Below are positions 2,171-44,979 of a stretch of DNA of 64,000 bases, in pieces. The position numbers and the translations under genes are program-made. The notes beneath the pieces are model-generated. The model searched no databases. It had not been told where the DNA came from and saw nothing but the letters and a program-made list of their open reading frames with translations. The DNA lies in IMG/VR virus record IMGVR_UViG_3300042892_002669, positions 1 through 64,000 of that record; one strand, 5' to 3'. Each line of letters begins with the position of its first letter. Positions within the stretch are counted from its first letter, which is position 1. Origin of the DNA: a virus.

Positions 2171-2677
2171 CTATTTTAAAAACTCGTCGATTGACAAGTC
2201 GTAATGCAAGCTATTTATTCTGTGTACCCCTATGCAGTACAAAACAAAACTAGCTATACTACTTCCCCTACCCACTCCCCACAAGACATTGTTACTGCGC
2301 ATGGTATCCACTAGGTATTTTAAATACCTGAGCATGGGAAACAGTCCACGTTCTTGGAACATGATCAGTTCTTGTCCTGCTCTCTGTAGTTCACTGTCAG
2401 CCTTACACTGATCCAATACATATTGGGCAATGTCTATGTTCTTGTATTCCGCAGGCATATACCAATTTAATTGCATTGACCGATCAAACTGCTTGATATC
2501 TACTTCTGGTTGTTGATAAACTGTTATTCTTGGTGCGTTAACCAACTCCAGTACTTCGTCAAAGGAAATGGGTTCCTCGACCAGTACCTGGTGGATTTTA
2601 GCGTCTGGATCTTGTAGATACACTGCACACAAATCAGCTGGTGTGAGTATCTGTTGTCCGTATAAATCAGTTCTCAT
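2171..2677 (-). CDS. dnaE: DNA polymerase III alpha (DnaE)-like, N-terminal palm fragment (split gene part 1)
   Basis: R...EL..F..RG, GVGRGSSIASFVLYCIGVHRINSLHYDLSIDEFLK matches DnaE GPGRGS..GSLVAY.L.IT..DPL...LLFERFL; stops just before the PDxDxD motif. Confidence 0.9.
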   Translation of the reverse strand: MRTDLYGQQILTPADLCAVYLQDPDAKIHQVLVEEPISFDEVLELVNAPRITVYQQPEVDIKQFDRSMQLNWYMPAEYKNIDIAQYVLDQCKADSELQRAGQELIMFQERGLFPMLRYLKYLVDTMRSNNVLWGVGRGSSIASFVLYCIGVHRINSLHYDLSIDEFLK

Positions 2678-2683
2678 TTGACT

Positions 2684-2712
2684 AGTATAACACCTAATCA
2701 AACAAATAGCAA
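2684..2712 (-). promoter_or_regulatory. Sigma70-type promoter (TTGCTA-17-TATACT), 6 nt before ATG 2677
   Basis: Near-consensus hexamers with 17-bp spacer. Confidence 0.6.
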
Positions 2713-2715
2713 CAG

Positions 2716-3330
2716 TTATTTTTCCGGTTTGTTGTCAAAACTGGCAAATACTATTTCACTGGATGAACCAGTAAAGGGCAATATGTCTTCTTCCCAACCC
2801 AAAAACAAATCATCCCAAGTAGATGAACTCTTGACCAATTTAACTACCTTTTTGGACTTGTTGTTTTTTGTCAGATTGTTTACCTTCAAACTGCTTTCAT
2901 TCCACCAACCCTCTTTGACAAACGGTCCCACAGTTTCTTCTACGCTGTGGTGACAGTTTACCCCATCACTGAGTTTAGAGGTTATGGCTATGTCAGTTAC
3001 AGTCAATCTGCCGTCAGTTATTGCGTTGATTTTTAACAACAGCATGATTCCTATTACCTGATCGTAGGGTAGTTCAGGTAGAGTACATATCTTTAAATCA
3101 GCATCCATGTACTTTTGGATCATTTCTGTGTCAGTTTCATCTATAAAGATAGTGCTCTCCAATGCTTTGTCAAACAAGTGATTTACTCTGTCCAGTGCTA
3201 TGTTTTGCTCACGCACATTGGTGGATTCTACCGTAAAGTGTATGTCTGCATCGTATGAGTTCATAAAGAACACACCCTTGAAGTAGGCTCCAGATTGGAA
3301 ACTAAAGGTACGACTTATTCTTGCTGTCAT
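2716..3330 (-). CDS. Hypothetical protein (possibly degenerate QueD/PTPS-like T-fold)
   Basis: 204-aa ORF; N-terminal ARISRTFSF resembles the first strand of QueD but His ligands are absent. Confidence 0.6.
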   Translation of the reverse strand: MTARISRTFSFQSGAYFKGVFFMNSYDADIHFTVESTNVREQNIALDRVNHLFDKALESTIFIDETDTEMIQKYMDADLKICTLPELPYDQVIGIMLLLKINAITDGRLTVTDIAITSKLSDGVNCHHSVEETVGPFVKEGWWNESSLKVNNLTKNNKSKKVVKLVKSSSTWDDLFLGWEEDILPFTGSSSEIVFASFDNKPEK

Positions 3331-3566
3331 TTTTTATTTTCGCCTGAGATGTTGATTTGGCCCTGCACGTTGCGCTTCTCGTACATTGCGTCTATGCGTT
3401 TGGTATATTCTACGTTGTAGCTTTCTATTACCATGCGCAGTTGCTGAATCATGGTTGCATTTTGCATTCTTAATGCAAATGACATCTTGCTCTGGAGATC
3501 ACCAATAGTTTTGGTGAGTTCGTCCATAGTTTTGTCAGATAGATCGTTGATGAATGGATGTTGCAT
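3327..3566 (-). CDS. Hypothetical coiled-coil protein
   Basis: 79-aa helical ORF just downstream of a late-promoter-like CTAAATA. Confidence 0.75.
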   Translation of the reverse strand: MQHPFINDLSDKTMDELTKTIGDLQSKMSFALRMQNATMIQQLRMVIESYNVEYTKRIDAMYEKRNVQGQINISGENKK

Positions 3567-3578
3567 CCATATATTTAG

Positions 3579-4610
3579 TTAGTAGGCGCTGGGTGAAATT
3601 CTTTTCCATATGGGACTCGCGCCATTTGTGTAGCTATTAGTGCATACATAAACATAATCTGCATCTACTTTTACTGCACCATGAACATCTGTGATATCAC
3701 CGGTTGGTAGCTGGCGCTTGTATGCTGCTGCATTTAGTGTGACCAATGCATCAGCAGTTAATGTCAAACTGGTATTGCTTGCTATAGAAGCCACTGTACC
3801 AATAACACTATTAGTTGAATCCAATATTACTCTACCCGCCACCAATTCAGTAGTAAACAGGGTGCCCACACCCACCACTGTACCCGAACTACCCACTGTG
3901 GTGATGGTGCCAGTGGCAGTCACATTGGAGACAGTGGGCGTACCTGCTAACACTACCTGTGATGCTCTTTGGCTTCTGTTTACTGGAACGATTTCCATAG
4001 TAGTACCGCAATCCAGCGTACTGATCACGTAGTGCAGTTGATTTACTCCGGCTGGGATAGTTAATGTGTTAGTATAGGTTACATTAGTACCCGGTATTGC
4101 TACGTTAGAACTATAATTTTCCAACAGTCTGGCGCTGGCAGTCATTCCATTAGTAGGTATCGAATTAGTAAGTGTAGTCTCTGGTAGTGTAATCATCGCG
4201 GCTGAGTTTGCAATAGTGAGAACTAGTTGCACATTGCTCTGTGTACCACTGGGTGCCCATCCACCGAAATCAATTGTGGTGTTACCTGTTATTGTACCGT
4301 AATGCACATCAGCTAAATTGACATTTACTTTTTGTGTCTCTGCAACATTTGTACCCAGATTATATGTAGTTGCTCTAAAGCTTTTTACCAGTGCGTTGCT
4401 GATTAACGTGTTGGCCATGTCATTGTTCAAGTTGATGCCTGTTAATCCAGACTTGACAATTGCTTTATTTTGTATATCAGTTATTTCTATGCTGGCAGTG
4501 TCAAGACTGTTCTTTAAGCTGGCAAAGTTATCACGAAAGCCCTGGCTATTGTTATTGACCCCAGGTACAGGATAGTTTGAATTAATTCCGTTAGTGTTTA
4601 TTGCACTCAT
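3579..4610 (-). CDS. Virion structural protein (tail/baseplate-associated)
   Basis: YPVPGVNNNSQGFRDNF N-terminus, Thr/Gly-rich beta body, fibre-like C-terminal YVYVC...WKR. Confidence 0.7.
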   Translation of the reverse strand: MSAINTNGINSNYPVPGVNNNSQGFRDNFASLKNSLDTASIEITDIQNKAIVKSGLTGINLNNDMANTLISNALVKSFRATTYNLGTNVAETQKVNVNLADVHYGTITGNTTIDFGGWAPSGTQSNVQLVLTIANSAAMITLPETTLTNSIPTNGMTASARLLENYSSNVAIPGTNVTYTNTLTIPAGVNQLHYVISTLDCGTTMEIVPVNRSQRASQVVLAGTPTVSNVTATGTITTVGSSGTVVGVGTLFTTELVAGRVILDSTNSVIGTVASIASNTSLTLTADALVTLNAAAYKRQLPTGDITDVHGAVKVDADYVYVCTNSYTNGASPIWKRISPSAY

Positions 4611-4647
4611 ATTGTTTTCCGTTGTGTCAGTTGTGTATTTAGTTCAA

Positions 4648-6801: not shown

Positions 6802-6806
6802 TTATA

Positions 6807-7424: not shown

Positions 7425-7435
7425 CAGTTTTTCCT

Positions 7436-9647: not shown

Positions 9648-12600
9648 TTACTTTAATCCACTTAATTTCAAGAATTCAGCCATTAAGTCATTGGATTCAC
9701 TTACTTTTACTGAAGTATGTGGCAATGTGGTTTGATCGCGCTTTCTTCTGTTCAATCCACCAGATATAGTGTTCATCATAAAGTCTATATCTTGGTCAGC
9801 TTGGTCATCGGCTGAATTGGCATAGCTTTCTTCAACTTGTTCTTCAACTTCGTCTTTTTTAGATTTCTTTCTCTCATCACGAGCAGCATCCCATGAAGCT
9901 TTATCGTTATGATCTCCGCCCCAATTTTTTGGATTATCAGGATTTTCGTCATCTTCTTCGTCGTGTTCTTCGTATTCATCAGGATCGTCAGCTCTGGCTT
10001 CGTCTACCATTTGACCGTGTTCGCAAGAGCCTTCAGACATGCCACATTCATTGCATGAGCCTGATTCTTCTTCGTCGCTGGATTCTTCATCTGCGTAGTC
10101 GTCACTGGATTCGTCTGATCCAATACCTGACATCTTTTTCATCAGTGACAACATATCGTCACCACCTGATTCACCATCATCAACAGTGATAAGCGCAGTT
10201 CCTTCGTGGTCTTGATCACCTGACATGGGCACACCATAGTTAGAGAACTTGGTTGAGTCTTCTTGCTTGTTGCCCATGCCGCCTAAACCAGCGTTTCTCA
10301 TGATAGCCATGACTTCTTGTGCATCTGCACCCGAAGCAGTAACTGAGATAGTGTCATCTCCCTGATCGCCCTGTGTGGTGGATATAGTTAAACTTTCAGT
10401 TAATAACGAATTCAACTGTCTATTCCAACTTTCTAATTGTGTGTCCATATTTTTGCTTTCCTTAACATCAAAGTGTTTGTCGCCCAGTGTAAATGACTCT
10501 TTACCTGCAGCCTTTGCCATTTTTGCTGCATAAGTAAATGGACTTTCTTCTAATTCAGCTTCATCAATCTCTGACTTGCCTGTGGCAAATCTACCTAAAC
10601 CTGTACCTATATCAGATACATCTTTCTTGAATATGCTGAATGCGCCTTGTTTTTCTTTACTGCATTCACTTGCGGGCCAAACGTCCATGTCACCTGAAGC
10701 GGTGTGTACAAAACACTTGTCGCCTTCAACACGATCAACAGTTCCAGCAGTACCTCTCCAGTACACTGTTTCACCTGAATCAAATGCTTCTGGCAGCATG
10801 GCTGTTTCTGATGTTATCTGTGGTGCTCCCATGTCTTCTTGGAATCTGTTATATACCCATTGATGTGGATCGCCTGTACGTGCTTTGGCTATGCCATATG
10901 GAATCTCACCGCTGTCAAGGTAGTAATCAAACAGGGCCTCATATAAATCATCATCCATGTCCATATCTGGATTGGCCATGAACTGTTTGACTTCATGCTT
11001 GAATCTATTGGTAACATGCGCCAATGTATCATGCGAGTCTTCCATATGAATGCCTTCTTTGACAGTTTTCTTTGCTCTTAGTGCAGCAAAATCTTTAGCA
11101 TCTAATTTACCTTTTGGTGGGGCAACGTCAAGTTTCTTTTGACCACCTTTAAGACCTTCAAGTAAATCGTCGAGTGCGGCTGAATACGCCATGTGTACAA
11201 ATTCTTGTGTGTCTGGATGATTGCCACCTATTGTCCAATCCATTCCAGAAATATTGTCACTGTCAGGATATATAGTAGCAATTAATCCATTACTAAATTC
11301 TAATACCCACGTGCCGTCATCACCAGGAGGACCAAATGCAAATTCTAAATCTTCTGCGTTCGTTCTTAATGACCCCTGTTTTGTTGTACGGTTTGCCTTC
11401 ATTCCAGGATCATCACTGATGTTCATGGGAGTAATATCAAACTTGGGTAGATAACGTTTATCGTGTTTTGATCTGCCAAACATGCCTTCGTCTTGCTCGT
11501 CAATCTTTTTAGCAATTTTGTGTGCCTTGACAATTGTGCTTTTCTTCAGTGGAGGCTCGTCATCTGCTGCTTTCTTAGCCACTGCCATACCAATTGCATA
11601 TTTGTTTTTGGCTTTGGCTTCATTGATAGCTGCTTCTGATGATTCAATCCAATCTTTCAAACTGGATTTCTTCTCTTTGTACTCTGGGCTGCCCTTGGGT
11701 GGTTTGTCTGACAGTGTATGTCTGGTTACCTTGGTTGGGTTTGCTTTTGCATAAGATTTGCTCTCTTTATCTGAGGCACGCTTGGCAGCAGTGTCTTTTG
11801 GATTGGTAGCAACTACGTCACCCTTTGGACGACCACGCCCTTTTTTCTCAGCTGGCGCTTTGGAAACTGTAGTACCAGTATCTTCATCATCTGAGTCACC
11901 TTGGTATTCAGCGCCATAGCTGCCTGAATACTTCTGTCCCTTGATGTCAGCCATTTTAGCTTCGTTCATTGATATAGCATCCATGATGCCAAACATTTTT
12001 TTAAAGTCCATACTCATATGTGTTTCCTTAGATTCCTTTGTTATATTACTTAACTGCTTGATGTGCGCTAGTGCATCATCGCCTTCTTTTACTTGAGATT
12101 TGTCGCCGAGGCCAAAAAAGTTTTTAACTGCAGACAAGTTCCTGTCTCCAGATGCTTTTTGATCTGCTGCTTGTTGCGCAGCCTTTTCGGCGCCTGGATA
12201 CTGTTTGCCATAGTTGCTTTTGTTACTGTCCCATGCAATTTCATCGGGGCTTCTGGTAGTGTACAGGCCGCCAGTGCCAGTAGTTGTACTACCACCAGTA
12301 CCAGTACCTACAACTTGTGCTCCTGGTTCCAGTACAGGTTTGCCAGCGCCGGCTTGTGCTGCACGTAATTCAGTTGCTGCATCGGCAGGACTCATGCTAC
12401 TAATATTTGCTGGCAATGGCATTTTTGCATTTTGTGGTTCAATTATATTAGGCTGCATTGTATTGTTACTACCGCCGCGAGTTGCTGGCTGACTGGTAGT
12501 AGTATCTTCACCTGATTTATAATTGGGATTTGGTTTTCCGCCTACATATTGATATTCTGATGGTGTTGGACCACCAGCTGTTGCACTTGCTCTATCCGCT

Positions 12601-13679
12601 GTAGCTTGAGCTTGACGTTTGATGTTAGCTGATGCATTATTCGTAGGTGCCACTGGTTTAACTGCGGCCACCGGTGGTTGTTCACCAGTTGTAGTAGTGT
12701 TGCTACCCCGAGGAGCTTGTGCAAGATTTGATTGTGCTGCAATTCTTTCTCGCTCTCTACTGGCAGCATCAGGTCTTGCTGCGATTGCCAGCTTGGATGG
12801 TGGTGGCTTGACTGCAGGTGTTACCTTAGCTGGTATTGGCTTTGTTGGTAACGCCGCGTTAGGTGTAGTATTGAGCGGATATGTTCTTGACGGTAAACTT
12901 GCATTGTTGGCTGGCTCAGAGGCTGACCTCACCGGTGCTGCAGGTGTTGTTGCTACTGGTGCTGCAGGTGTTGTTGCTACTGGTGCTGCAGGTGCAGGTG
13001 CTGCGTTGGATGTGTTTGGTGCTGCGTTAGGTGGTGTTGTTGCTGCAGGTGCTGCAGGTGCTGTTGCTGCCCCAGAAGGAATCGCACCATACAATGCTTC
13101 TTTAGCAGCATCGTAGGCAGAAACGGCCGCGTATCCCAAGGCGCCAGCGCCGGCTAATGCCTTTTTTGGATTGTTCCATGCCAATTTTGCGGCATCAACT
13201 GCTCTGCTGGTTGCACTGGGCGTGTTCGCAGCCAGCGCAGCTTTCGCAGCTTTAGCATCCATAGCAGCTTGAATCTGTGGGGGTATTCGTTCATTCTTTG
13301 CACTTGCATTACTAAGATCGCCTTTTGTTGCGGCGGCTTTATCAGTAGCAGCCTTCTCAGTAGCAGCTTTCTCAGCAGTAGCAGCTTGGGCCGGCTTGGC
13401 CTTGGCAGCAGCTGGATTAACTAATATACTTTTTCCGGTATTAGCATTAGTCGAACCAGTTGGTACTGTATTTAATTTAGCTGTTGCAGGTTTAGCTTGT
13501 ACACCAAATTTGGACTTAAAATTAGGGTTGTTAACTTTACCTCCACCGCCACCTCCTGGAAAACCGCCTCCACCTAAATCAGGTGACATGAATGGATCTC
13601 CCCGGTGAGGGCTAGATTTTCCTAGATCACCCATGTATGTGTCGGCGTACGCCTCAGACAATATATTCTTGATCTTCAT
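9648..13679 (-). CDS. Large low-complexity probable internal head/core polyprotein
   Basis: 1343 aa, Ala/Pro-rich then acidic; many (L/I/V/M)xE|(A/S/G) sites; starts MKIKNILSEA, ends FLKLSGLK. Confidence 0.7.
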   Translation of the reverse strand: MKIKNILSEAYADTYMGDLGKSSPHRGDPFMSPDLGGGGFPGGGGGGKVNNPNFKSKFGVQAKPATAKLNTVPTGSTNANTGKSILVNPAAAKAKPAQAATAEKAATEKAATDKAAATKGDLSNASAKNERIPPQIQAAMDAKAAKAALAANTPSATSRAVDAAKLAWNNPKKALAGAGALGYAAVSAYDAAKEALYGAIPSGAATAPAAPAATTPPNAAPNTSNAAPAPAAPVATTPAAPVATTPAAPVRSASEPANNASLPSRTYPLNTTPNAALPTKPIPAKVTPAVKPPPSKLAIAARPDAASRERERIAAQSNLAQAPRGSNTTTTGEQPPVAAVKPVAPTNNASANIKRQAQATADRASATAGGPTPSEYQYVGGKPNPNYKSGEDTTTSQPATRGGSNNTMQPNIIEPQNAKMPLPANISSMSPADAATELRAAQAGAGKPVLEPGAQVVGTGTGGSTTTGTGGLYTTRSPDEIAWDSNKSNYGKQYPGAEKAAQQAADQKASGDRNLSAVKNFFGLGDKSQVKEGDDALAHIKQLSNITKESKETHMSMDFKKMFGIMDAISMNEAKMADIKGQKYSGSYGAEYQGDSDDEDTGTTVSKAPAEKKGRGRPKGDVVATNPKDTAAKRASDKESKSYAKANPTKVTRHTLSDKPPKGSPEYKEKKSSLKDWIESSEAAINEAKAKNKYAIGMAVAKKAADDEPPLKKSTIVKAHKIAKKIDEQDEGMFGRSKHDKRYLPKFDITPMNISDDPGMKANRTTKQGSLRTNAEDLEFAFGPPGDDGTWVLEFSNGLIATIYPDSDNISGMDWTIGGNHPDTQEFVHMAYSAALDDLLEGLKGGQKKLDVAPPKGKLDAKDFAALRAKKTVKEGIHMEDSHDTLAHVTNRFKHEVKQFMANPDMDMDDDLYEALFDYYLDSGEIPYGIAKARTGDPHQWVYNRFQEDMGAPQITSETAMLPEAFDSGETVYWRGTAGTVDRVEGDKCFVHTASGDMDVWPASECSKEKQGAFSIFKKDVSDIGTGLGRFATGKSEIDEAELEESPFTYAAKMAKAAGKESFTLGDKHFDVKESKNMDTQLESWNRQLNSLLTESLTISTTQGDQGDDTISVTASGADAQEVMAIMRNAGLGGMGNKQEDSTKFSNYGVPMSGDQDHEGTALITVDDGESGGDDMLSLMKKMSGIGSDESSDDYADEESSDEEESGSCNECGMSEGSCEHGQMVDEARADDPDEYEEHDEEDDENPDNPKNWGGDHNDKASWDAARDERKKSKKDEVEEQVEESYANSADDQADQDIDFMMNTISGGLNRRKRDQTTLPHTSVKVSESNDLMAEFLKLSGLK
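12934..13070. repeat. In-frame tandem repeats (24-bp unit GGTGCTGCAGGTGTTGTTGCTACT encoding PAAPVATT, plus degenerate copies)
   Basis: Two exact copies and further partial copies read directly. Confidence 0.85.
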
Positions 13680-30150: not shown

Positions 30151-33100
30151 TTATACGCCTATCGGATTAGGTCCGCCTGTGGGCACACTAGTCATAGTTA
30201 TCTTAAATTTAGCACCGGTTGAGTTGTTTATGATGTACAACCCGTCACTACCTGGCATCATGGTCCAAGTGTTAGCTTCATTCTTCATGGTAACATCACT
30301 GACATACAAGTTCTTCCAATGCAGATCAAGAGTTGGAACAACAGCAAGTATCAAGTCATTTACACCATCTGTGCCGTTCAATGCACTACCAAAAATAGTA
30401 ACTGTGTCATTAAATGTTAGAGTTGAGCCAGATGAAGTTGTACTATCAGCCGCAGCCGTTAGGGTTAAAGTGTTAGTTAAACTGTCAATAGTTACTACTC
30501 GTTGTCCAGAAGTAAATCCAGCGCCAGTTACTGCCATTTGTTGTGTAATACCCGAAATGTCATTCACCACAAGTGATATGCCTGTTGTGTTGACAAAAGT
30601 TTTATTTATGGAAGCGTATCCCGAACCTAATGCATTAATCCTAACTTTATACACCTGTCCGCCCACGCTAGCCGGAGTTGTATATACTTCAAATGATGCG
30701 TCCGCGCCCGACCCACTGGTAGCTACCAGTGGGTTCAACTCACCAGTGGGAGAAGATTGTGACACTATCCATGATTCGGCGAAAGTTTTAGCCGCGGCCG
30801 GGGTACCGGAGATAATATCTAATGAAGCGATTGATCCAGCTTTGGCACCTAAATTTTGTGAGGCTGTAGTACCAGGCACAACACTACCAACTGCATCAAC
30901 TGTTGTTGTTTGATATCCACCATTCCAAATAGTTACTTTATTATCCTTATCATTTACTCCTAATCCACTGCCTTCCATATATGGATATGCAATAAAATCT
31001 GCATTTGTATCAGATAGCATAGTGAATCCATTGGTCAATGACGTAAAATAGATACCATGTGTGGCACCGTGATAGCCAGTAATTGATACTAAATCAGGAT
31101 CCCAAATTAAACTAGTATTATCGCCAGGGATTGTGTACTGTCCATCCTTGTGTACAGTTAGTCCAAGTAGTGACCCAACACTGGTGATAGCAGGCTGTGC
31201 TGCTGTTGTCACTGTGCCAGCAGTAGTTGCAGTAGTGGCTGAACCAGCAGTAGTTGCGCTGGTAGCAGTTGCTACAGTGCCCACTACATTTGAAGCATTC
31301 AAGTTGGTTAAGGCGGCGCCGTTGCCTGAGAATAAATTGGCAGTTAATCGACCGGTGGTTTTGGCATATGTTAGCTGCGAATCACCACCAAAGGCTCCTG
31401 CATCATTAAATTGTACCTGTTGCGATGCGCCGCCTGGATTCACATCAGGTTGAGCTACCCAACTTAGTATTCCAGTGCCATCTGTTTGTATCACATACCC
31501 TGCAGTACCGCCGGTGATGGTTACGTTGGACAATGGTCCCAGATTAGCCAGTCTGGTTACTATCAGATTGCCATTGGATGTCAGATTGCCGTCTACTCTT
31601 AGTTCGGTCAATATGCCCACACTTGTTATACTGGACTGCGCACTGGCAGTGACTGTGCCTGCTGTAGTTGCGCTGGTGGCGCTGGCTACTGTGCCTGTTA
31701 CATTGGCTGCTGGAATACTGGTCAAGCCAGCAGCGGAACCGTAGAATGCAGTGGCTGTTAATCTGCCAGTGGTTTTATCAAAGGTCAATGCTGAGCTTGT
31801 GTTGGACACACCACTATCATTGAATTGAACTTGTTTATCTGAGCCTGGTGCTGATTTAGGATTCTGCCACGACAACACACCTAAGCCGTCAGTGGATAAC
31901 ATATAACCAGATGTTCCACCTGTGATGGTGACATTGGCCACTGCGCCTAAATTGGCAGTGCTGGTTGCTATTATATTTCCACTTACATTACCAATGAAGT
32001 TGCCTGCACGAACATTGCCCAGAGTATTGAATGTTACAACGTCACTTGCTACACTTACGTTACTGCCAAATACAAATTCTCCAGCATTGTTATCCCAACC
32101 CATGAATGCATCAACTGGCTCAGTGGTAAAATAATGTAATAGCTGACCTCTGTCTTTACCATCATTGCTTTCTAATACACCTGTTGTATTTCCGCCTTGC
32201 TCTATAATTGGATCTTTAACAACCATGGTTTCCACATTGGCAGTGATAGTAACACCACTAACTGTTAGGTTGCCGCTGATTGTGGCATCGCCTGCTGCTA
32301 AAGTGCCAACAGTTGATAAGTTGCCTGCTGTTGCTGTGCCAGTAACTGACAAGCTGGTTAATGTACCAACACTTGTAATGTTAGGTTGTGCTGGCGTTGT
32401 TACAGTTCCTGCGGTAGTTGCAGTACCTGCAGTGGTCGCGCTGGTTGCTGCTCCGCTTAGTGCGCCTACAAATGTGGTAGCTATTATCGCGCCATTGGCT
32501 AAGTTGGCCGAAAAACTGGCATTAGACAAGTGTGCGTAGTTACCAGTGGTAGTATCACTGATAAAAGGAATATATGCTGTGCCAGTGTTGGTCAATGTGG
32601 TTAATAGTGCTGCTGCATTGGTTGCATTGGCAACTGCACCACTTACGTTGGCGCCTGTTACTGCATTGGCTGTGGTTGCATATGTAGCCAAGCCAACCGC
32701 ACCTGAAACATTAGAACCTGTTACTGCGTTGGCAGTGGCTGCGAATGTAACTTCACCTGTAACGTTAGCGCCTGCTATTGAAGTTAGCCCTACCCCGTTT
32801 GCGATAATATAATCTACGCTTAATGTTTTGGTTGAATTATTATAAGTTAATCCTGAGCTGCCGGCAAAACTACCAGCACTATTAAATTGAACTTGGGTAT
32901 CGTCGCCACCTGGGGTAGTTTCTGAACCACCCGAACCTGCTGATTGTACTACCCAACTTAAATTACCGCTACCATCCGTTCTCAGTACATATCCAGCAGT
33001 ACCACCAAGTATTCTAACATTGCTCACTGCACCCAGACTTATATTTGCACCTGAAAGAGATACATTGCCTATGCTTGTTAAACTGGTCAGTGTACCAACA

Positions 33101-35052
33101 CTTGTGATATTTGGTTGTGCGTTTGTATAAACCGTACCTGCGACTAGTGCATTAGCTACCTGTCCAGTAATATTGGTACCAACGATTGACTCAGCACTGC
33201 CTGCTATAACTGCACGAACCGCATTGGCTACGAAGCCGGTTACGTTAGCACCTGCTACTCGGTTTGATACGTTTGCAAAACTAACAGCACCAGTTACGTT
33301 AGCACCTGCTACTGCGTTTGCAGTTGTTGCGAAACTTACTGCGCCTGATACATTAGCACCAGCTACGCTGTTAGCCGTAGTTGCGAAAGCCACTGCACCA
33401 GTTACGTTAGCACCTGTTATATTAGCTAGACCGGCGGCGTTTCCACTAAATGTGGAAGTCAATACGCCTGTTACTTTATCAAAAGTTAATTTATTATCGG
33501 CGCCGATTGAACCATTGTCATTAAACTGGACTTGCGTGTTGATTCCAGACGCTACCGCAGTTCCCAGCAGTGGGGGTTGCCAAGACAGGGTACCGTCACC
33601 TGCAGTGGTCAGTACATAATTAGTGCTGCCGCCTAAAATCTTTACATTGGCAACTGGACCTAGATTAGCGACTCCATCAACGTGTAATGATGTCAGATTG
33701 CCCACTGTAGTAATATTTGGTTGGGCAGCAGTGGTTAATACTCCAGTGAAGTAATTGGCAGCTATCAAATTGGCGGCGCTGATGTCACCGGAACTCAGTG
33801 TAACATCACTCATGGTAACACTAGTGGCATCTGCAGTTATCTGTTGAGTACCGATAAAAATAGACTTGCCGGTGGACATGTATACGTCTTTCCAGCGTTG
33901 AGCGGGAGATCCTAGGTCATATGTTAAGTCTATGCTTGGTATCAAACTAGTGGTTACATTGCCAGTTACGTTCAAGTCTTTAACATTGGCTGTGCCAGTG
34001 GTTGTTAAGTTTCCTGCTGTCAAGTTGCCAGTTACTGTGGCAATATTGCTTATGATTACGTTATTGGCGTTAACATTGCCTGTTATGTTTGCTGTAGTGG
34101 TAGCAGTGATGCTGGTAAATGCACCGGAGTTGGCTGTAACTGCACCAATCGCACCAGAGAACGATCCCTTAAAGGTATTGGCCGCTACGTTTTTGGTAGC
34201 TGTTATGTTTCCAGTTACTGTTAATAAGTTGGTAACTCTGTTAAATGCTAGATTACCAGTGGCAACGAATACACCAGAACCATCACTTATTTGTATTTGA
34301 TTGTTGGCTCCTGCTGACGCACCGGTGCCAGCCGCAAAGAATGCAGCGGTGGCTACACCACTATCAGCTACATATGCAGTGAATGCAGTGGCGTTTACTT
34401 GTTTAGTTGGGTCATTAAAATCTATGCTGGTATATAGGGCAAATGTGTTTGATGTTAGTACTTGAGCAAAGTATTTGTTGGTTCCCAGTTCACCAGCAGT
34501 TCTGATTTGAGTCATGCCATCAACATCAACGATAGTGACCGGAACACCGGTGCTCAATTGATTTGGTGTAACTGTGGTAACTACTGCAGGATTGGTTTGT
34601 GATATGTCTGCAATATCATATGTTACTACCCCTGCATTGGTCCAAGTTAAGTTACCTGTACCATCAGTCTGTAGTACATAGCCATTGGTTCCACCCAGTA
34701 TCTTTACATAGTCTGATTCGCCTAAATTGATATCAACTGTGGAAGCTGGGCCACCGCCGTTTACCCAAGCATAGTCTTTTGCTACCAGTAGTTGACCATC
34801 AGTTAAATCAGATACGTTAAATGTAGTATTGGCTGCGCCATCAATTTTGGCAAAGTTTAGCAGCGAAACTTCAGTTAGTACCTCTGTTTGAGTGGTAGTT
34901 CCACCCTCAGCTGGTGGATGCAATGTTGGATCATTGCCTATATATAGTCTGCGTTCGTCTGTGGCAAAGCCAAGCTCGCCCTCAGATAATTGGGGTAAAT
35001 CTACGTTAGCCCCAGTGCGGTGTTGAATCCTTGAAATCTGTATGATTGCCAT
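30151..35052 (-). CDS. Long tail fibre protein
   Basis: 1633 aa; IQHRTG..LPQL..GELGFATD.RRLYIG N-terminus; repeated GGT.GYVL.TDG.G.LSW, QVQFN, AQPNITSVG.L and GANVTG modules. Confidence 0.85.
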   Translation of the reverse strand: MAIIQISRIQHRTGANVDLPQLSEGELGFATDERRLYIGNDPTLHPPAEGGTTTQTEVLTEVSLLNFAKIDGAANTTFNVSDLTDGQLLVAKDYAWVNGGGPASTVDINLGESDYVKILGGTNGYVLQTDGTGNLTWTNAGVVTYDIADISQTNPAVVTTVTPNQLSTGVPVTIVDVDGMTQIRTAGELGTNKYFAQVLTSNTFALYTSIDFNDPTKQVNATAFTAYVADSGVATAAFFAAGTGASAGANNQIQISDGSGVFVATGNLAFNRVTNLLTVTGNITATKNVAANTFKGSFSGAIGAVTANSGAFTSITATTTANITGNVNANNVIISNIATVTGNLTAGNLTTTGTANVKDLNVTGNVTTSLIPSIDLTYDLGSPAQRWKDVYMSTGKSIFIGTQQITADATSVTMSDVTLSSGDISAANLIAANYFTGVLTTAAQPNITTVGNLTSLHVDGVANLGPVANVKILGGSTNYVLTTAGDGTLSWQPPLLGTAVASGINTQVQFNDNGSIGADNKLTFDKVTGVLTSTFSGNAAGLANITGANVTGAVAFATTANSVAGANVSGAVSFATTANAVAGANVTGAVSFANVSNRVAGANVTGFVANAVRAVIAGSAESIVGTNITGQVANALVAGTVYTNAQPNITSVGTLTSLTSIGNVSLSGANISLGAVSNVRILGGTAGYVLRTDGSGNLSWVVQSAGSGGSETTPGGDDTQVQFNSAGSFAGSSGLTYNNSTKTLSVDYIIANGVGLTSIAGANVTGEVTFAATANAVTGSNVSGAVGLATYATTANAVTGANVSGAVANATNAAALLTTLTNTGTAYIPFISDTTTGNYAHLSNASFSANLANGAIIATTFVGALSGAATSATTAGTATTAGTVTTPAQPNITSVGTLTSLSVTGTATAGNLSTVGTLAAGDATISGNLTVSGVTITANVETMVVKDPIIEQGGNTTGVLESNDGKDRGQLLHYFTTEPVDAFMGWDNNAGEFVFGSNVSVASDVVTFNTLGNVRAGNFIGNVSGNIIATSTANLGAVANVTITGGTSGYMLSTDGLGVLSWQNPKSAPGSDKQVQFNDSGVSNTSSALTFDKTTGRLTATAFYGSAAGLTSIPAANVTGTVASATSATTAGTVTASAQSSITSVGILTELRVDGNLTSNGNLIVTRLANLGPLSNVTITGGTAGYVIQTDGTGILSWVAQPDVNPGGASQQVQFNDAGAFGGDSQLTYAKTTGRLTANLFSGNGAALTNLNASNVVGTVATATSATTAGSATTATTAGTVTTAAQPAITSVGSLLGLTVHKDGQYTIPGDNTSLIWDPDLVSITGYHGATHGIYFTSLTNGFTMLSDTNADFIAYPYMEGSGLGVNDKDNKVTIWNGGYQTTTVDAVGSVVPGTTASQNLGAKAGSIASLDIISGTPAAAKTFAESWIVSQSSPTGELNPLVATSGSGADASFEVYTTPASVGGQVYKVRINALGSGYASINKTFVNTTGISLVVNDISGITQQMAVTGAGFTSGQRVVTIDSLTNTLTLTAAADSTTSSGSTLTFNDTVTIFGSALNGTDGVNDLILAVVPTLDLHWKNLYVSDVTMKNEANTWTMMPGSDGLYIINNSTGAKFKITMTSVPTGGPNPIGV
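33230..33420. repeat. 54-bp-period in-frame repeats (about 18 aa, GANVTGAVSFATTANAVA)
   Basis: GTTACGTTAGCACCTG core or variant recurs four times at 54-nt spacing. Confidence 0.8.
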
Positions 35053-39827: not shown

Positions 39828-39828
39828 A

Positions 39829-40753: not shown

Positions 40754-40779
40754 ATTCGGTGTTCCTGTAAGTATATTTA

Positions 40780-42192
40780 TCACTTTTTAAGACTATTGAG
40801 CATTGCCCTCAGTTTTGTACTCTGCACTTCCGCTACCACTTTCTTCTCCGGGGCTGCATCCATAACTTCACTTACATGAGTAGGACTAACTACTTCACTG
40901 GAAACCTTGAATTTACTCATAATTTGATTGGCTGATGACTGTTGATTATTGGCTGCATAATCGTCAGTTCCAGGGTCAGTAATTCTAAGTGTTTCTATGT
41001 TAAATTCTAGGTCAATCTTCTGTCCAACACCACTACTGCTTCGGGTTTTCATCAATTGAATCTGATATTGACCACGCTCGCGCATACTTCTACTGGTAAA
41101 GATACCTATCACGTTATCTGCTGTGTTGATCTTTGAGATACCACCACTAATATGACTGTGATCAAATTCAATTTCTTCCACTGCGCTACGATTCAACTGA
41201 CTGGCTGTTACCAACAACACATTCAATTCTTTGGCTAGATTTCTAATTTCTTCTGCTACATACTTGTCTTTAATGAACAAATCACTGGGGCTTACTTTAG
41301 CACTCACTGGCATCAACAAGTCCAAATAGTCAATACACAGGAAGTCCACTTTGAAGTTGGCTTGGATTTGCAGTTCTTTGCAATAAGCCCTGATATCATT
41401 CACTGTACTCTGTGCTGGCATATACTTGATACGAAAGTCACCCGACTTCTTGGCAGTCATTTTGACTTTCATTTCAACTGTGTCTAGTTCTCTGAAAATA
41501 TCTCTGGCACCCACTGAAGTAACCATGCTGTCAATACGCATTGCACTCAAGCCTTCACTGAGTTCCAGTGTTAAGTATACGCCACTGAGTCCTTGCTGTG
41601 CCCAGTTCACTGCAAGATTTTGCATGAACAAGCTTTTACCTGAGCCAGATCCGCCTGCAAAGATTTGTAGTTCTCCACGATTGAATCCACCATACAGTGC
41701 TTTGTCTAGCACTGGCCAGCCTGTACTGACCTGTCCATTGTTGTTCTTTAGTTTCATCAGGCGAGCACGAGGATCAGAAAAGTAATCAGTACCCATGTCT
41801 TTGCTAATACTGATCTGAACTGCGTCTTTAATCAGTTTCTCCACAGGATCATAATCACCCTTCTCTAACAAGTCGGCTGATTTCAGAATGGCACGTTCTA
41901 GTTCTTGTCGTTTGGTAAACTGTTCAAACTCATCCAGAAACCATTCACAATGACCTTCACCCAAGTCGGCCACTGGCTCTAAATCAACACTGCATGATGC
42001 AGCGATTTGACCAGGTTCAGGCAGCGTGTTATATTTCTCAGTGTGTTCCTTAAAGAATTTAACAACAGGTTTCAATGCCTTATCAAAGTTTTCAGGATTT
42101 ACTATGTTGGATACTCGGGTGTATAATTCACCGTCAGTAACCATCATGCGCAAAAACAACTTCTGAACTTCGAAATTATAATCTTTTAACAA
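40780..42192 (-). CDS. gp41: Replicative DnaB-like helicase (gp41-like)
   Basis: GGSGSGKS, LELSE, IDYLDL, TASQLNRS, KTR. Confidence 0.95.
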   Translation of the reverse strand: MLKDYNFEVQKLFLRMMVTDGELYTRVSNIVNPENFDKALKPVVKFFKEHTEKYNTLPEPGQIAASCSVDLEPVADLGEGHCEWFLDEFEQFTKRQELERAILKSADLLEKGDYDPVEKLIKDAVQISISKDMGTDYFSDPRARLMKLKNNNGQVSTGWPVLDKALYGGFNRGELQIFAGGSGSGKSLFMQNLAVNWAQQGLSGVYLTLELSEGLSAMRIDSMVTSVGARDIFRELDTVEMKVKMTAKKSGDFRIKYMPAQSTVNDIRAYCKELQIQANFKVDFLCIDYLDLLMPVSAKVSPSDLFIKDKYVAEEIRNLAKELNVLLVTASQLNRSAVEEIEFDHSHISGGISKINTADNVIGIFTSRSMRERGQYQIQLMKTRSSSGVGQKIDLEFNIETLRITDPGTDDYAANNQQSSANQIMSKFKVSSEVVSPTHVSEVMDAAPEKKVVAEVQSTKLRAMLNSLKK

Positions 42193-43150
42193 TATTTTTC
42201 CTCTGCATTTCTATTTTTATTTTACTAGTGGTCGCACTCTGTAGTATACTTAACAGAGTGGGAAACTTGCCATATTTAATTACTGCATCATTAACATCTT
42301 TTATCTCATCGTGCCAACTGGGTATGCTTACACTGTATCCCAACTCTATGGCTCGTTCACACACTGCCATACCTGGCTTGTCTCTGTCAGGAACAAATAT
42401 AATTTGACGATTCAGTTGTCTCAGTAACCTTGATTGCATGTCACTGATATCATTGTGCATCAATGCGCAACCATCTATACTCAGTGCATCAAATATGCCT
42501 TCAACCAAGATACACACTTGCCAGTCTGCCTTCTGTTGATCGTAACCAAATACATATCCCGGTTGTTGATCGTTGATGTACTTGGGTATTCTAGTGTCCA
42601 AGAATCTGCTGGTATTGCCCACTATAGTGTTTTGATAGGTATATGGTACTATAACTCGGTTACTGTTTCTGCCAGTGGCAGTGGGTGATACAAAGAATTT
42701 GAACTCTACTGGATTTACTTTTCTAGACAACAGGTAGTCAACATAAACTTTATGCTGTGGGTTGGTCAAATCTAACGGTTCACTGTCAGGCAACTGAGTT
42801 TGTTTAAAGTGTAGGGGCTTTTCTTTTTTAAACTTCTTGGTAAAGTCCAATAGGTCTTTGTTCTGCAGGCTTTCCAAGTTCCAGCGTTGTATCTGTTGTT
42901 GATCTACGCCGCACCAAGTTAGAAAGTCTCTGGTTTTCTTACTTAGACTGTTGCCAATTTCCAGATTACAACTGTATCCACAATTGAAACAATGATATAC
43001 CCAATTGGCGCCTTCAGTAAACTTGATGCCACCGCGCTGCCGTCTGTCCACGGTGTGACCGCGCTTGTCGCAGCAGGGCGCATTGAAGCTATGCCAGCCG
43101 CTGCCGCTTACTTTCTTCTTACCAGGAACAATCAATAAAATATCAAACAT
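42176..43150 (-). CDS. gp61: DNA primase (gp61-like, Zn-ribbon plus TOPRIM)
   Basis: CC...HCFNC, VEGIFDA, PDRD..G, KDVNDA. Confidence 0.92.
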   Translation of the reverse strand: MFDILLIVPGKKKVSGSGWHSFNAPCCDKRGHTVDRRQRGGIKFTEGANWVYHCFNCGYSCNLEIGNSLSKKTRDFLTWCGVDQQQIQRWNLESLQNKDLLDFTKKFKKEKPLHFKQTQLPDSEPLDLTNPQHKVYVDYLLSRKVNPVEFKFFVSPTATGRNSNRVIVPYTYQNTIVGNTSRFLDTRIPKYINDQQPGYVFGYDQQKADWQVCILVEGIFDALSIDGCALMHNDISDMQSRLLRQLNRQIIFVPDRDKPGMAVCERAIELGYSVSIPSWHDEIKDVNDAVIKYGKFPTLLSILQSATTSKIKIEMQRKNIVKRL

Positions 43151-43198
43151 GCTAGTATTATAGCATACTGTAAGACAAAAGTATAGCAGTGTGGTATC

Positions 43199-43975
43199 TT
43201 ATCTTACCAAAACTCCAGCTACATCACCTGCTGTGCCGGCAAATTCTATACGATAGAATGGATGAGCACCATTGGGAATAGTATAGCCAATTGTAGTTGA
43301 GTTGGTGCTGTATGTGTAAACATCATCAATTGCATACCAATCACCTTGCACCTCAGTGGACGCTTGCAATTGTACCGTACCGGTATAATTACTGTATGCT
43401 ACCTGCATGGTAACAGTGGAGTCTGATGCCAATTGAAATACACTGCTATAAAAGGTAACCGCCACGTTTCCAACTGGATATTGGTGACTGGGTATCCCAA
43501 CTATCTGGGATGGTACGAATTCGGGCAGTATGCTGTCTAGTACCTGTATTACTCCACTGGCGGTGGTGTCTGAGTCTGCAAACACTGGGTACCCAGCTTC
43601 AGTTGATCCAGAGTCTTTCCACTCCAATGAGTACCTGCACATTTGTGATGTGATTGTATTCAACTCACCGTCGGTGACTTCTAATATAGCAATACCAGTT
43701 AATGGCAGCGCACCCAGTGTTGGATCAGTACTAAGAGCTTTGGTCATTAGTACACTCTTATTGTCATCACTGAGCAATCTGAACGATATTTCTTTTCCAG
43801 TGACATCAACTGGCTTTTGCTCTTGGTTTAAAAATTGGAATTGAATCTTATTTTTAACGCCCTTGTGCAATTTAATGGTTTTTGCGTACACGTTTTTGTA
43901 TCTCCTAGCTGAGTTTCCATGCGAAACCACTACCGTTTGTCTGGGGGTATAGTAATAAACAGAGGTTGAGTACAT
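43199..43975 (-). CDS. Hypothetical beta-rich virion protein
   Basis: Late-promoter-like AATAAATA upstream; FQFLNQEQKPVDVTG pattern. Confidence 0.65.
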   Translation of the reverse strand: MYSTSVYYYTPRQTVVVSHGNSARRYKNVYAKTIKLHKGVKNKIQFQFLNQEQKPVDVTGKEISFRLLSDDNKSVLMTKALSTDPTLGALPLTGIAILEVTDGELNTITSQMCRYSLEWKDSGSTEAGYPVFADSDTTASGVIQVLDSILPEFVPSQIVGIPSHQYPVGNVAVTFYSSVFQLASDSTVTMQVAYSNYTGTVQLQASTEVQGDWYAIDDVYTYSTNSTTIGYTIPNGAHPFYRIEFAGTAGDVAGVLVR

Positions 43976-44052
43976 GCGAATTAGTCCTTTACACTATTTA
44001 TTAAATTTTTCGGTAATAGTTCCAAGATAAATATCCGTGAATATTGAACCTT

Positions 44053-44430
44053 ATGCATAACGAGTTTTTCACTAACCTAACTGCCAACCATCCATTTATC
44101 ACGGTCTGTTCCTATTCGGGACAAGATTATGTGGGTATAATCCAAAACCGTGATGATATAGTCACCACTATGTACGATTATGGGGCTATCGTAACCAATC
44201 CATTGCGTGAAAAGTTCCTAGAATTAGGGGACATTTGGTGGTGGGAAAGCAACAGACTGACGCCCATTAACCTGTTTCTCAAGGATGATTGGTCTGTGTT
44301 CAAGCAGTACTTGCGTACATTCAACAACAAAAGTCTAAACGTGCTGCATGGCCCAATCTGTAGCATCAGCGAGCTGAGCAAAAAGAAATCCAAACGTAAA
44401 TCTATTACCCTAGTCCGGCGTCTTGGATAA
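44053..44430 (+). CDS. Hypothetical protein
   Basis: Plus-strand ORF after GATAAATA at 44026-44033; WWWESNR..PINLFL. Confidence 0.75.
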   Translation: MHNEFFTNLTANHPFITVCSYSGQDYVGIIQNRDDIVTTMYDYGAIVTNPLREKFLELGDIWWWESNRLTPINLFLKDDWSVFKQYLRTFNNKSLNVLHGPICSISELSKKKSKRKSITLVRRLG

Positions 44431-44979
44431 CAAGTTCATGTGTACTACAACCAGATGGGCGTAGCCGATTGCATGCGCTTTCTTAAAACTGTACCCTTCA
44501 TCGTTCTTATCCCACACTGTCTTTGCAACTTCGCTCCATGCTTTGCCTATCAAATGCTTTTTTGCTGGTCTGATCAGTGCTAAAAACATGGCCAGTCTGG
44601 GAATACTGTTCACTGGCTCTGGCATCTTGCGTAAACTATTGTAGTGATTACTCAAGTGCAACAGTCGGCTGACGAAAGCACTGTCATTCAACTGCTTCCA
44701 ATCAGGTTCCCGCATCAGTGATATTAACTCTGCTTCATCCTTGATTAAATTGTACACGTGTACATTCAGCAAGTCTAACTTCAAGTAACCACGTTTATCT
44801 GCCTCAGTGTAATCAATATTGGCCATGCTGTTGACTGCATCATAGGGTATGTCAGTTATATGCACGCCAGTGGTGTGCTTGCGCATGGGAGTGACCTTGC
44901 GCATGGCTGCAGGAATATGCTTGATATGTTCAAGTATCTTGCTGCGATCACCAAAGTCAATATCAATGTCAAAGTTCAT
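44410..44979 (-). CDS. dnaE: DNA polymerase III alpha (DnaE)-like catalytic fragment, miniaturised (split gene part 2)
   Basis: DIDIDF, KHTTGV, GYLKLDLL, LALIRPA, YSFKKAHAIGYA in DnaE order within 189 aa. Confidence 0.9.
   Translation of the reverse strand: MNFDIDIDFGDRSKILEHIKHIPAAMRKVTPMRKHTTGVHITDIPYDAVNSMANIDYTEADKRGYLKLDLLNVHVYNLIKDEAELISLMREPDWKQLNDSAFVSRLLHLSNHYNSLRKMPEPVNSIPRLAMFLALIRPAKKHLIGKAWSEVAKTVWDKNDEGYSFKKAHAIGYAHLVVVHMNLLSKTPD

What the first reader, a model, noticed from the sequence alone, without database searches (positions are those of the whole stretch)
2171..44979. Split, intein-less, minimal C-family (DnaE) polymerase encoded by two genes 42 kb apart
Seen: gene 2171-2677 (168 aa) ends GVGRGSS...YDLSIDEFLK* and gene 44410-44979 (189 aa) begins MNFDIDIDF. 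Known: in DnaE these segments are contiguous (GRGS...LLFERFLNPER..MPDFDVDF), so the break lies in the short loop before the catalytic DxD. Part 2 keeps equivalents of E. coli D401/D403/D555 (here D6, D8, D69) plus the HAGG-, RPG- and YxFNKSH-like motifs. The D8-D69 spacing is 61 aa versus 152 in E. coli, implying most of the thumb is lost. No PHP, HhH, clamp-binding or OB domain is recognisable, and the total is about 357 aa versus over 1100. Neither half carries intein sequence, unlike cyanobacterial split DnaE. Both ORFs are intact with their own expression context. Inference: a heterodimeric minimal polymerase working with T4-type accessory proteins, or one repurposed for priming, repair or nucleotidyl transfer.
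Basis: partly seen in the sequence, partly recalled or inferred. Interest (0 to 1): 0.9.

Follow-up and report, generated by a model that had tools for sequence, protein, structure and literature searches.

The report
Split mini Pol III polymerase, jumbo phage

Summary
Observation confirmed and interpretation supported, but the kind is already published. Both ORFs exist, on the minus strand: 2171-2677 (168 aa) and 44410-44979 (189 aa). By sequence profile and predicted fold, part 1 residues 69-168 match E. coli Pol III alpha 278-393, carrying the R-G-S nucleotide-binding motif. Part 2 residues 1-189 match 399-780, carrying the three catalytic Asp, the adjacent Lys, and the Lys and steric-gate His of the fingers motif. 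The PHP domain, thumb, about 90 residues of fingers, clamp-binding and OB domains are absent. No intein sequence is present.

Both halves have thousands of metagenomic homologues with an identical breakpoint, invariant catalytic residues and purifying selection. They co-occur in every record examined. A complex prediction passes its controls (0.91 against 0.00). Rare natural fused proteins of 375-376 aa join the halves through a 9-residue linker.

Iyer et al. 2021 (PMC7824862) described exactly this split minimal Pol III alpha, beside a family B polymerase, in group 2.2 jumbo phages. This scan has also found it before on other DNA. What it does beside the family B replicase is inferred, not shown. 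I favour short-patch DNA synthesis at the fork.

The parts
2171..2677 (-). Part 1 (N-half), 168 aa. Residues 69-168 are the N-terminal palm subdomain of Pol III alpha (E. coli 278-393) with G136-R137-G138-S139 = E. coli 361-364. Residues 1-68 are a small alpha/beta domain with no match.
   Evidence: PF07733, E 1e-8; phrog_11127, 1.5e-38; Z 10.0-12.1, rmsd 2.2-2.5, 94-97 residues aligned.
44410..44979 (-). Part 2 (C-half), 189 aa. Rest of the palm with D6/D8/D69 and K67 (E. coli D401/D403/D555, K553), no thumb, and a shortened fingers region with R137-P138 (E. coli R639-P640), K167 and H169 (E. coli K758 and steric gate H760).
   Evidence: phrog_11778, 3.7e-53; pLDDT 95.5; Z 8.6-9.8 over 182-186 residues, E. 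coli 399-780.
44976..45524 (-). Context: stand-alone DEDDh-type 3'-5' exonuclease (Rv2179c-like). Its stop overlaps the part 2 start (ATGA). It is a lineage-specific neighbour, not a universal one.
   Evidence: PF16473, 1.5e-33; overlap; adjacent in 2 of 5 relatives; not beside part 2 in Paride or GAP32.
44044..44430 (+). Context: small convergent gene (128 aa, phrog_11637) whose 3' end overlaps the 3' end of part 2. A gene of the same size and orientation sits there in Paride, GAP32 and Slicko01.
40780..43150 (-). Context: DnaG-type primase (42176-43150) and DnaB-like replicative helicase (40780-42192), two genes downstream of part 2. This order is conserved in cultured relatives.
127..1778 (-). 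Context: clamp-loader large subunit (127-1053) and GroES-like co-chaperonin (1380-1778) just downstream of part 1. This order is conserved in Paride, GAP32 and SCTP-2.

Best explanation
The two genes encode the two subunits of one minimal C-family (DnaE/Pol III alpha-type) nucleotidyltransferase core. Part 1 supplies the helical N-terminal palm subdomain with the R-G-S motif, which in DnaE holds the triphosphate of the incoming nucleotide. Part 2 supplies the strands carrying the three metal-binding aspartates, and a trimmed fingers region carrying the steric-gate histidine. The halves are predicted to associate non-covalently, without protein splicing. The strand before the R-G-S motif (W133-G134) pairs with the DxD strand (I7-F9), which closes the palm sheet. 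The phage belongs to the RaK2/PA5oct-like 'group 2.2' jumbo phages. Its relatives replicate with a T4-type family B polymerase, so this enzyme is an accessory DNA polymerase. My preferred role is short-patch, low-processivity synthesis at the fork, such as extending primers or filling gaps on the lagging strand. Shown here: homology, fold, conserved catalytic residues, fixed breakpoint, co-occurrence, purifying selection. Inferred: heterodimer formation, dNTP-dependent templated synthesis, and the role beside PolB.
For: Homology and fold.

Catalytic residues: D4, D6, K67, D69, R137 and P138 are invariant, and D8, H35, G38, K140, K166 and H169 are at 90% or more, over 88 sequences drawn mostly from 50%-identity clusters. 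G134, G136, R137, G138, S139 and S140 are invariant in part 1. D401/D403/D555 and the steric gate H760 are defined in PMC8485763.

One unit: the model supports binding; ipSAE 0.91 in three runs against a best control of 0.00. That mark was reached by 58 of 80 solved complexes and 2 of 110 mismatched pairs. Contact agreement was at least 96% and partner pLDDT at least 89. DnaE structures are solved, so part of this pass may come from memory. Natural fused proteins P0290, P0391 and P0392 (375-376 aa) join the halves in the same order through a 9-residue linker.

Co-occurrence: 5 of 5 long related contigs, plus Paride, GAP32, Slicko01 and SCTP-2, carry one copy of each half, 11 to 128 kb apart.

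Fixed breakpoint: all 120 listed part 1 homologues end in EF[LI]K. DxDxD starts within 12 residues of the N-terminus in 205 of 206 part 2 homologues.

Selection: part 1 omega has median 0.17, and 0.08 in the least saturated pair. Part 2 has pN 0.21-0.38 against pS above 0.8.

Accessory status: PolB is present in 5 of 5 related long contigs. Both halves lie in replication gene clusters. The same reading is published.
Against: No activity has been measured, and I found no experimental paper. The thumb and about 90 residues of the fingers are missing, as are the clamp-binding domain and the OB domain. Stable binding of a primer-template is therefore not assured. The C-terminus of part 2 is not conserved, so no obvious clamp-binding peptide is visible in the consensus; this was not tested further. 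PolB was not found in this 77-kb fragment, which CheckV rates 22% complete. Its presence in this phage is inferred from relatives. The primer-extension or gap-filling role rests only on gene neighbourhood and analogy.
Confidence: 0.7

Rival explanations
1. The pair is an active Pol-beta-fold nucleotidyltransferase that is no longer a templated DNA polymerase. It might add untemplated nucleotides, prime de novo, or make a nucleotide signal or modification.
For: The thumb and much of the fingers, which hold the duplex in DnaE, are deleted. Part 1 has an extra N-terminal 68-residue domain of unknown fold that contacts part 2 in the model. The phage group already has a full PolB.
Against: The fingers helix with K167 and the steric-gate H169 is kept at 90% conservation or more, as are R137-P138 of the template-side fingers. 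These features matter for templated dNTP selection (PMC8485763). Both genes sit in replisome clusters.
Confidence: 0.17
2. The two proteins act separately. Each half has been co-opted for its own job, and they do not form one active site.
For: The genes are 42 kb apart in different gene clusters and next to different partners: clamp loader against primase-helicase.
Against: Neither half alone holds a complete active site; the R-G-S motif is on one and all three Asp are on the other. Co-occurrence was complete in every record tested. Fused forms exist. The complex model passes its controls.
Confidence: 0.05
3. This is the phage's main replicase: a radically reduced DnaE working with the T4-type clamp and helicase.
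For: No family B or A polymerase lies in this 77-kb fragment. Clamp loader, primase and helicase genes are adjacent.
Against: All five long relatives carry PolB reading frames; four are single frames of 900-981 aa and G005 has two frames of 560 and 417 aa. Two of these records are rated 100% complete. Cultured relatives carry PolB as well (PMC6892783; PMC7824862). No clamp-binding domain is present.
Confidence: 0.04
4. These are decaying remnants of a captured host dnaE, or an assembly artefact of a contiguous gene.
For: The total is only 357 aa against more than 1100, and the pieces are far apart.
Against: There are thousands of homologues of fixed length, 4516 and 7156. Catalytic residues are invariant and pN is far below pS. 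The same split occurs in complete cultured phage genomes. Independent contigs from other runs run straight through the part 1 stop into the downstream gene, as in the window.
Confidence: 0.02

Closest known systems
Split minimal DNA polymerase III alpha of group 2.2 jumbo phages (Iyer, Anantharaman, Krishnan, Burroughs, Aravind 2021, Viruses 13:63, PMC7824862, section 3.4.1 and Fig. 3b); PHROGs phrog_11127 and phrog_11778
   Same: Two distantly located genes. The N-half is the NTP-binding subdomain and the C-half the Mg2+- and template-binding subdomain. No other Pol III domains are present. The host group is T4-like with PolB, clamp loader, DnaG primase and DnaB helicase. Synteny around both halves matches PA5oct-like phages and GAP32.
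   Different: Nothing in kind. This copy comes from an uncultured freshwater phage and is at most about 45% identical to the versions in cultured phages. In this sublineage part 2 is translationally coupled to a stand-alone exonuclease.
Bacterial DnaE / Pol III alpha (E. coli 2HNH, Thermus aquaticus 2HPI/3E0D, M. tuberculosis DnaE1 5LEW/7PU7) and PolC (3F2B)
   Same: Pol-beta-like palm with the R-G-S motif, three catalytic Asp, the Lys next to the third Asp, the R-P fingers motif, and the F-x-K-x-H helix with the steric-gate His. The order and fold are the same.
   Different: 357 aa in two chains against 1100-1400 in one. There is no PHP domain, thumb, beta-binding domain, HhH or OB domain. 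About 90 fingers residues between E. coli 641 and 740 are missing. Part 1 has a new 68-residue N-terminal domain. The enzyme is not the main replicase.
Intein-split DnaE of cyanobacteria (DnaE-n / DnaE-c; from my own knowledge)
   Same: A C-family polymerase encoded by two distant genes.
   Different: The cyanobacterial halves carry split-intein fragments and are spliced into a full-length DnaE, and their break lies elsewhere in the protein. Here there is no room for intein sequence. The fold alignments run to the last residue of part 1 and from the first residue of part 2, and no intein family is hit.
Bacillus subtilis DnaE beside PolC (functional analogy only; from my own knowledge)
   Same: A second C-family polymerase that works beside the main replicase and extends primers on the lagging strand. 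Part 2 lies two genes upstream of the primase-helicase pair in every relative examined.
   Different: B. subtilis DnaE is a full-length, clamp-binding enzyme, and the partner replicase here is family B. The analogy is untested.

Membership tests
Split minimal Pol III alpha of group 2.2 jumbo phages | Two separate, distantly located genes | tested here: met
   2171-2677 and 44410-44979, both on the minus strand, about 42 kb apart.
Split minimal Pol III alpha of group 2.2 jumbo phages | N-half corresponds to the NTP-binding palm subdomain of Pol III alpha | tested here: met
   PF07733 at E 1e-8. phrog_11127 at 1.5e-38. VIA Z 10.0, rmsd 2.5, 97 residues on E. coli 278-393. The G-R-G-S motif is invariant.
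Split minimal Pol III alpha of group 2.2 jumbo phages | C-half corresponds to the Mg2+-binding and template-binding subdomains | tested here: met
   phrog_11778 at 3.7e-53. The family profile hits only Pol III alpha chains in the PDB. Z 8.6-9.8 over 182-186 residues. D6 and D69 are invariant and D8 is kept in at least 90%.
Split minimal Pol III alpha of group 2.2 jumbo phages | No other Pol III alpha domains in the genome | tested here: met
   No PHP (PF02811) or Pol3 finger (PF17657) match, and a single PF07733 match, in this record and in two relatives rated 100% complete. This record itself is only a 22% fragment.
Split minimal Pol III alpha of group 2.2 jumbo phages | Accompanied by a family B polymerase and a T4-type replisome | tested here: inconclusive
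   Clamp loader, DnaG primase and DnaB helicase are in the window. PolB is not in this 77-kb fragment but is in 5 of 5 long relatives.
C-family DNA polymerase (DnaE/PolC) | Pol-beta-like palm with three catalytic Asp and the G-S nucleotide-binding motif | tested here: met
   D6/D8/D69 = E. coli D401/D403/D555. R137/G138/S139 of part 1 = E. coli R362/G363/S364.
C-family DNA polymerase (DnaE/PolC) | Fingers helix with the steric-gate His | tested here: met
   F165-K-K-A-H169 aligns with E. coli F756-N-K-S-H760. H169 is kept in at least 90% of 88 sequences.
C-family DNA polymerase (DnaE/PolC) | PHP domain N-terminal to the palm | tested here: not met
   Part 1 residues 1-68 match nothing, and the fold match starts at E. 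coli 278. No PF02811 match.
C-family DNA polymerase (DnaE/PolC) | Thumb domain between the DxD motif and the third Asp | tested here: not met
   61 residues lie between D8 and D69, against 152 in E. coli. The 189 residues of part 2 span E. coli 399-780.
C-family DNA polymerase (DnaE/PolC) | Beta-clamp-binding, HhH and OB domains after the fingers | tested here: not met
   Part 2 ends at the equivalent of E. coli 780.
C-family DNA polymerase (DnaE/PolC) | Template-directed DNA synthesis | not testable with these tools
   This needs a biochemical assay. I found no published one.
Intein-split DnaE (cyanobacterial type) | Split-intein fragments flanking the breakpoint | tested here: not met
   Part 1 ends at EFLK, equivalent to E. 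coli 393. Part 2 starts five residues before the equivalent of D401. No intein family is hit and no unaligned tails remain.

The most novel reading that the evidence does not exclude
This heterodimer would be the smallest natural template-directed C-family DNA polymerase: about 290 core residues, no thumb, and an active site assembled across two polypeptides. It would serve as a dedicated primer-extension enzyme that hands primers from the DnaG-type primase to the family B replicase, a division of labour like Pol alpha with Pol delta, or B. subtilis DnaE with PolC. The rare natural single-chain forms (375 aa) would then be a ready-made minimal polymerase scaffold.
Probability: 0.25. Interest if true: 0.7.

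Novelty: new member of a known kind. Interest (0 to 1): 0.35.

Why it matters
The family is a natural experiment in how little of a replicative polymerase is needed. It has a Pol-beta-type palm and half a fingers domain, and its active site is divided between two polypeptides. It is widespread, with thousands of environmental homologues in aquatic jumbo phages, and it has been kept beside a complete family B replisome. Iyer et al. propose it as a model of the ancestral Pol III module. Biochemical proof of activity would inform both polymerase evolution and enzyme engineering. For this scan the practical message is that the finding is correct but already published, and that it has been met repeatedly on other DNA. 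As far as I could see, three points go beyond the passages of the 2021 paper that I read: rare secondary re-fusions, presence in a 141-kb phage that is not jumbo, and a lineage-specific coupling to a stand-alone exonuclease.

Tried and rejected
**Tools and searches that gave nothing**
The DNA and gene context of the fused proteins P0290, P0391 and P0392 could therefore not be fetched.
- Scans of viral contigs and metagenome contigs with P0290 found no fused locus. The two metagenome hits are ordinary DnaE genes.
- Alignment A4 (fused form plus both sets of halves) put part 1 sequences on the wrong half. I dropped it, so no model of the fused protein was made.
- A single-sequence search of part 2 against the PDB found nothing. 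Only the family profile did.
- The atlas search with part 1 residues 1-70 gave only scores under 0.9, which is no lead.
- The PaBG paper, which mentions Pol III often, concerns the gamma and beta subunits and is not relevant.

**Ideas rejected**
- The idea that the upstream exonuclease is a conserved proofreading subunit is rejected as a general rule. It is adjacent to part 2 in 2 of 5 relatives, 1.3 kb away in one, 47 kb away in one and absent from one. It is not next to part 2 in Paride or GAP32.

**Limits of the read and selection data**
- Reads: a roughly 96%-identical relative lies in two metatranscriptome libraries of one study. DNA carry-over cannot be excluded, so this is not evidence of transcription.
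- Only the part 1 region could be laid.
- dN/dS for part 2 could not be computed because synonymous sites are saturated. Only pN against pS is given.
Full report
**1. The observation**

Both ORFs are real and intact, and both lie on the minus strand. Part 1 is 2171-2677, 168 aa from the ATG. An upstream TTG at 2701 would give 176 aa, but nearly all of the 120 closest homologues are exactly 168 aa. Part 2 is 44410-44979, 189 aa. The quoted end (...GVGRGSS...YDLSIDEFLK) and start (MNFDIDIDF) are correct, and so are D6, D8 and D69.

The part 2 start codon overlaps the stop of the upstream gene (ATGA). The part 1 stop is followed directly by the ribosome-binding site of the next gene. Both genes therefore sit inside operons of same-strand genes.

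**2. Homology to DnaE**

- Part 1 hits Pfam DNA_pol3_alpha (PF07733, E 1e-8, profile positions 20-94). Part 2 hits no Pfam family.
- Both hit phage families already labelled DNA polymerase: phrog_11127 at 1.5e-38 and phrog_11778 at 3.7e-53.
- Part 1 residues 102-167 align without length change to E. coli Pol III alpha 327-392. This makes R137-G138-S139 the equivalents of R362-G363-S364.
- A profile of 88 diverse part 2 sequences matches nine distinct PDB sequences, all Pol III alpha, with best E 1.3e-5. It aligns K67/D69 with K553/D555, R137-P138 with R639-P640, and F165-K-K-A-H169 with F756-N-K-S-H760.
- D401, D403 and D555 are the E. coli catalytic residues and H760 is the steric gate (PMC8485763).

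**3. Fold**

The AlphaFold2 models are confident: part 2 has pLDDT 95.5 and part 1 has 88.4.

- For part 2, the 15 best chains in the second-look structural alignment (VIA-align on Foldseek's own matches) are all C-family polymerases:
  - PolC 3F2B: Z 9.8, rmsd 3.0, 184 residues aligned.
  - Taq 3E0D: Z 9.5.
  - E. coli 2HNH: Z 8.6, rmsd 3.8, 182 residues aligned, spanning residues 399-780.
  - The next unrelated chain scores Z 3.3.
- For part 1, residues 69-168 match M. tuberculosis DnaE1 306-413 (Z 12.1, rmsd 2.2, 94 aligned). They also match E. coli 278-393 (Z 10.0, rmsd 2.5, 97 aligned). The next unrelated chain scores Z 2.2.

By spacing, 91 residues are missing between the DxD motif and the third Asp; by my own knowledge of the E. 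coli structure this is the thumb region. Another 89 are missing between the R-P motif and the steric-gate helix. Everything after about residue 780 is missing, as is the PHP domain. Part 1 residues 1-68 form a small alpha/beta domain that matched nothing.

**4. One enzyme in two chains**

- Neither half has a full active site. The R-G-S motif is on part 1 and all three Asp are on part 2.
- A complex prediction with family alignments supports binding, though it does not show it:
  - ipSAE was 0.91 in three runs, against 0.00 for the best of three controls.
  - That mark was reached by 58 of 80 solved complexes and 2 of 110 mismatched pairs.
  - Contact agreement was at least 96% and partner pLDDT at least 89.
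  - DnaE structures are solved, so part of this pass may reflect memory of the contiguous fold.
- The most confident contacts pair W133-G134 of part 1 with I7-F9 of part 2. This lays the strand before the R-G-S motif beside the DxD strand. Part 1 residues 65-74 also pair with part 2 residues 41-43 and 63-65.
- Independent natural support comes from three proteins of 375-376 aa, P0290, P0391 and P0392:
  - They come from ENA and Logan assemblies and are 78-81% identical to each other.
  - They carry part 1, a 9-residue linker and part 2 in one chain, with all catalytic residues.
  - In a tree of C-halves they form a clade with support 1.0.
  - That clade nests inside a 12-member clade with support 0.995. 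The other nine members are stand-alone C-halves that begin with Met 6-10 residues before the DxDxD motif.
  - Under midpoint rooting, the fused form is most simply a secondary re-fusion.

**5. Conservation**

- The library at 90% identity holds 4516 near-length homologues of part 2 and 7156 of part 1. Part 2 has 357 clusters at 50% identity.
- Over the 88 diverse C-halves, D4, D6, K67, D69, R137 and P138 are invariant. D8, H35, G38, W94, K140, K166 and H169 are kept in at least 90%.
- In 48 N-halves, W133, G134, G136, R137, G138, S139 and S140 are invariant.
- The breakpoint is fixed. All 120 listed N-halves end in EF[LI]K, and 205 of 206 C-halves start the DxDxD motif within 12 residues of the N-terminus. 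The same ends are seen in PA5oct-like Paride and in GAP32.
- Selection is purifying:
  - Part 1 omega has median 0.17, and 0.08 in the least saturated pair.
  - Part 2 has pN 0.21-0.38 while pS exceeds 0.8.
- Co-occurrence was complete wherever I looked:

| Records | Result |
|---|---|
| Cultured phages | 95 records with part 2 and 92 with part 1 by tblastn |
| Slicko01 (141 kb) and SCTP-2, which each appeared in only one of the two lists shown | Both carry both halves by profile search, 11 kb and 116 kb apart |
| Five long related IMG/VR contigs | One copy of each half, about 37-128 kb apart |

**6. Context and identity of the phage**

The window is part of a 77-kb IMG/VR contig rated 22% complete. 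Near-identical sequence lies in lake and freshwater metagenomes from a dozen or more studies.

- Part 1 lies upstream of a GroES-like gene and the clamp loader. Part 2 lies upstream of a small convergent gene, a structural-type gene, the DnaG primase and the DnaB helicase.
- The same orders occur in Paride, GAP32, SCTP-2 and Slicko01.
- PolB is not in this fragment. It is present in all five long relatives, two of which are rated complete, and in cultured relatives (PMC6892783).
- No PHP or Pol III finger family match, and only one PF07733 match, occurs in this record or in the two complete relatives.

**7. Comparison with the literature**

Iyer et al. [quoted passage not shown] They suggest a role in synthesis of one strand or in repair.

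That is the present finding. Searches of the held library found no later experimental work. The scan's own index shows the same family noted on several other genomes with the same conclusion. I had reached the paper before consulting the index.

**8. Mechanism and odds**

I put about 0.9 on the two proteins forming one Pol III alpha-type catalytic core. I put about 0.7 on that core being an active, dNTP-using, template-directed accessory polymerase.

- The steric-gate His and the template-side fingers motifs argue for templated DNA synthesis.
- Loss of the thumb, clamp-binding and OB domains argues for short, distributive synthesis.
- The conserved position next to primase-helicase makes primer extension or gap filling the most economical guess, but that step is pure inference.
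- The main rival, at about 0.17, is a nucleotidyltransferase that no longer copies a template.

**9. The neighbouring exonuclease**

The DEDDh exonuclease coupled to part 2 (PF16473, E 1.5e-33) invites a comparison with the alpha-epsilon pair. The pairing is confined to this sublineage:

- It is adjacent in G004 and G005.
- It is 1.3 kb away in G001 and 47 kb away in G002.
- It is absent from G003.
- It is not beside part 2 in Paride or GAP32.

**10. Verdict**

This is a new member of a kind described in 2021, with its function still untested. It is interesting as biology but not as a discovery.

Noticed in passing
window 44976-45524 (-): A stand-alone Rv2179c-like DEDDh 3'-5' exonuclease is translationally coupled (ATGA) to part 2. 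The adjacency recurs in some close relatives (G004, G005; near in G001) but not in G002, G003, Paride or GAP32. It may be a lineage-specific proofreading partner or only a neighbour.
   Followed up: partly
P0290, P0391, P0392 (proteins; DNA not retrievable): Natural single-chain versions (375-376 aa) of the split enzyme, with a 9-residue linker. They nest within a clade of stand-alone C-halves, which suggests secondary re-fusion.
   Followed up: partly
window 2474-2677 (-), part 1 residues 1-68: A conserved small alpha/beta N-terminal domain (M1, D4 and G7 nearly invariant) with no structural or feature match. In the complex model it touches part 2.
   Followed up: partly
window 44044-44430 (+): A small convergent gene (128 aa, phrog_11637, function unknown) overlaps the 3' end of part 2. 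A gene of the same size and orientation sits there in Paride, GAP32 and Slicko01.
   Followed up: no
Alishewanella phage Slicko01, OQ508956.1, about 67.6 kb and 79.0 kb (L092): A 141-kb phage, well below jumbo size, carries both halves only about 11 kb apart. The split enzyme is therefore not confined to jumbo genomes.
   Followed up: partly
L094:3366-7382: A metagenome contig with an ordinary-length DnaE whose PHP domain (382-aa ORF) and polymerase core (933-aa ORF) lie in separate consecutive reading frames. This is a different split, a frameshift or a sequencing error.
   Followed up: no
G005:C1:163654-166082: The PolB of one related contig lies in two reading frames (560 and 417 aa). This recalls the intein/HNH-interrupted PolB reported for phage MIJ3 (PMC6892783).
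   Followed up: no
window 9648-13679, 17664-21311, 30151-35052 (all -): Three very long ORFs (1343, 1215 and 1633 aa) lie between the two halves. They were not examined and are presumably virion or other large jumbo-phage proteins.
   Followed up: no
window 1000-4000: A roughly 96%-identical relative of this phage is present in two aquatic metatranscriptome libraries of one study, including a 6.2-kb contig across the part 1 region. DNA carry-over cannot be excluded.
   Followed up: partly
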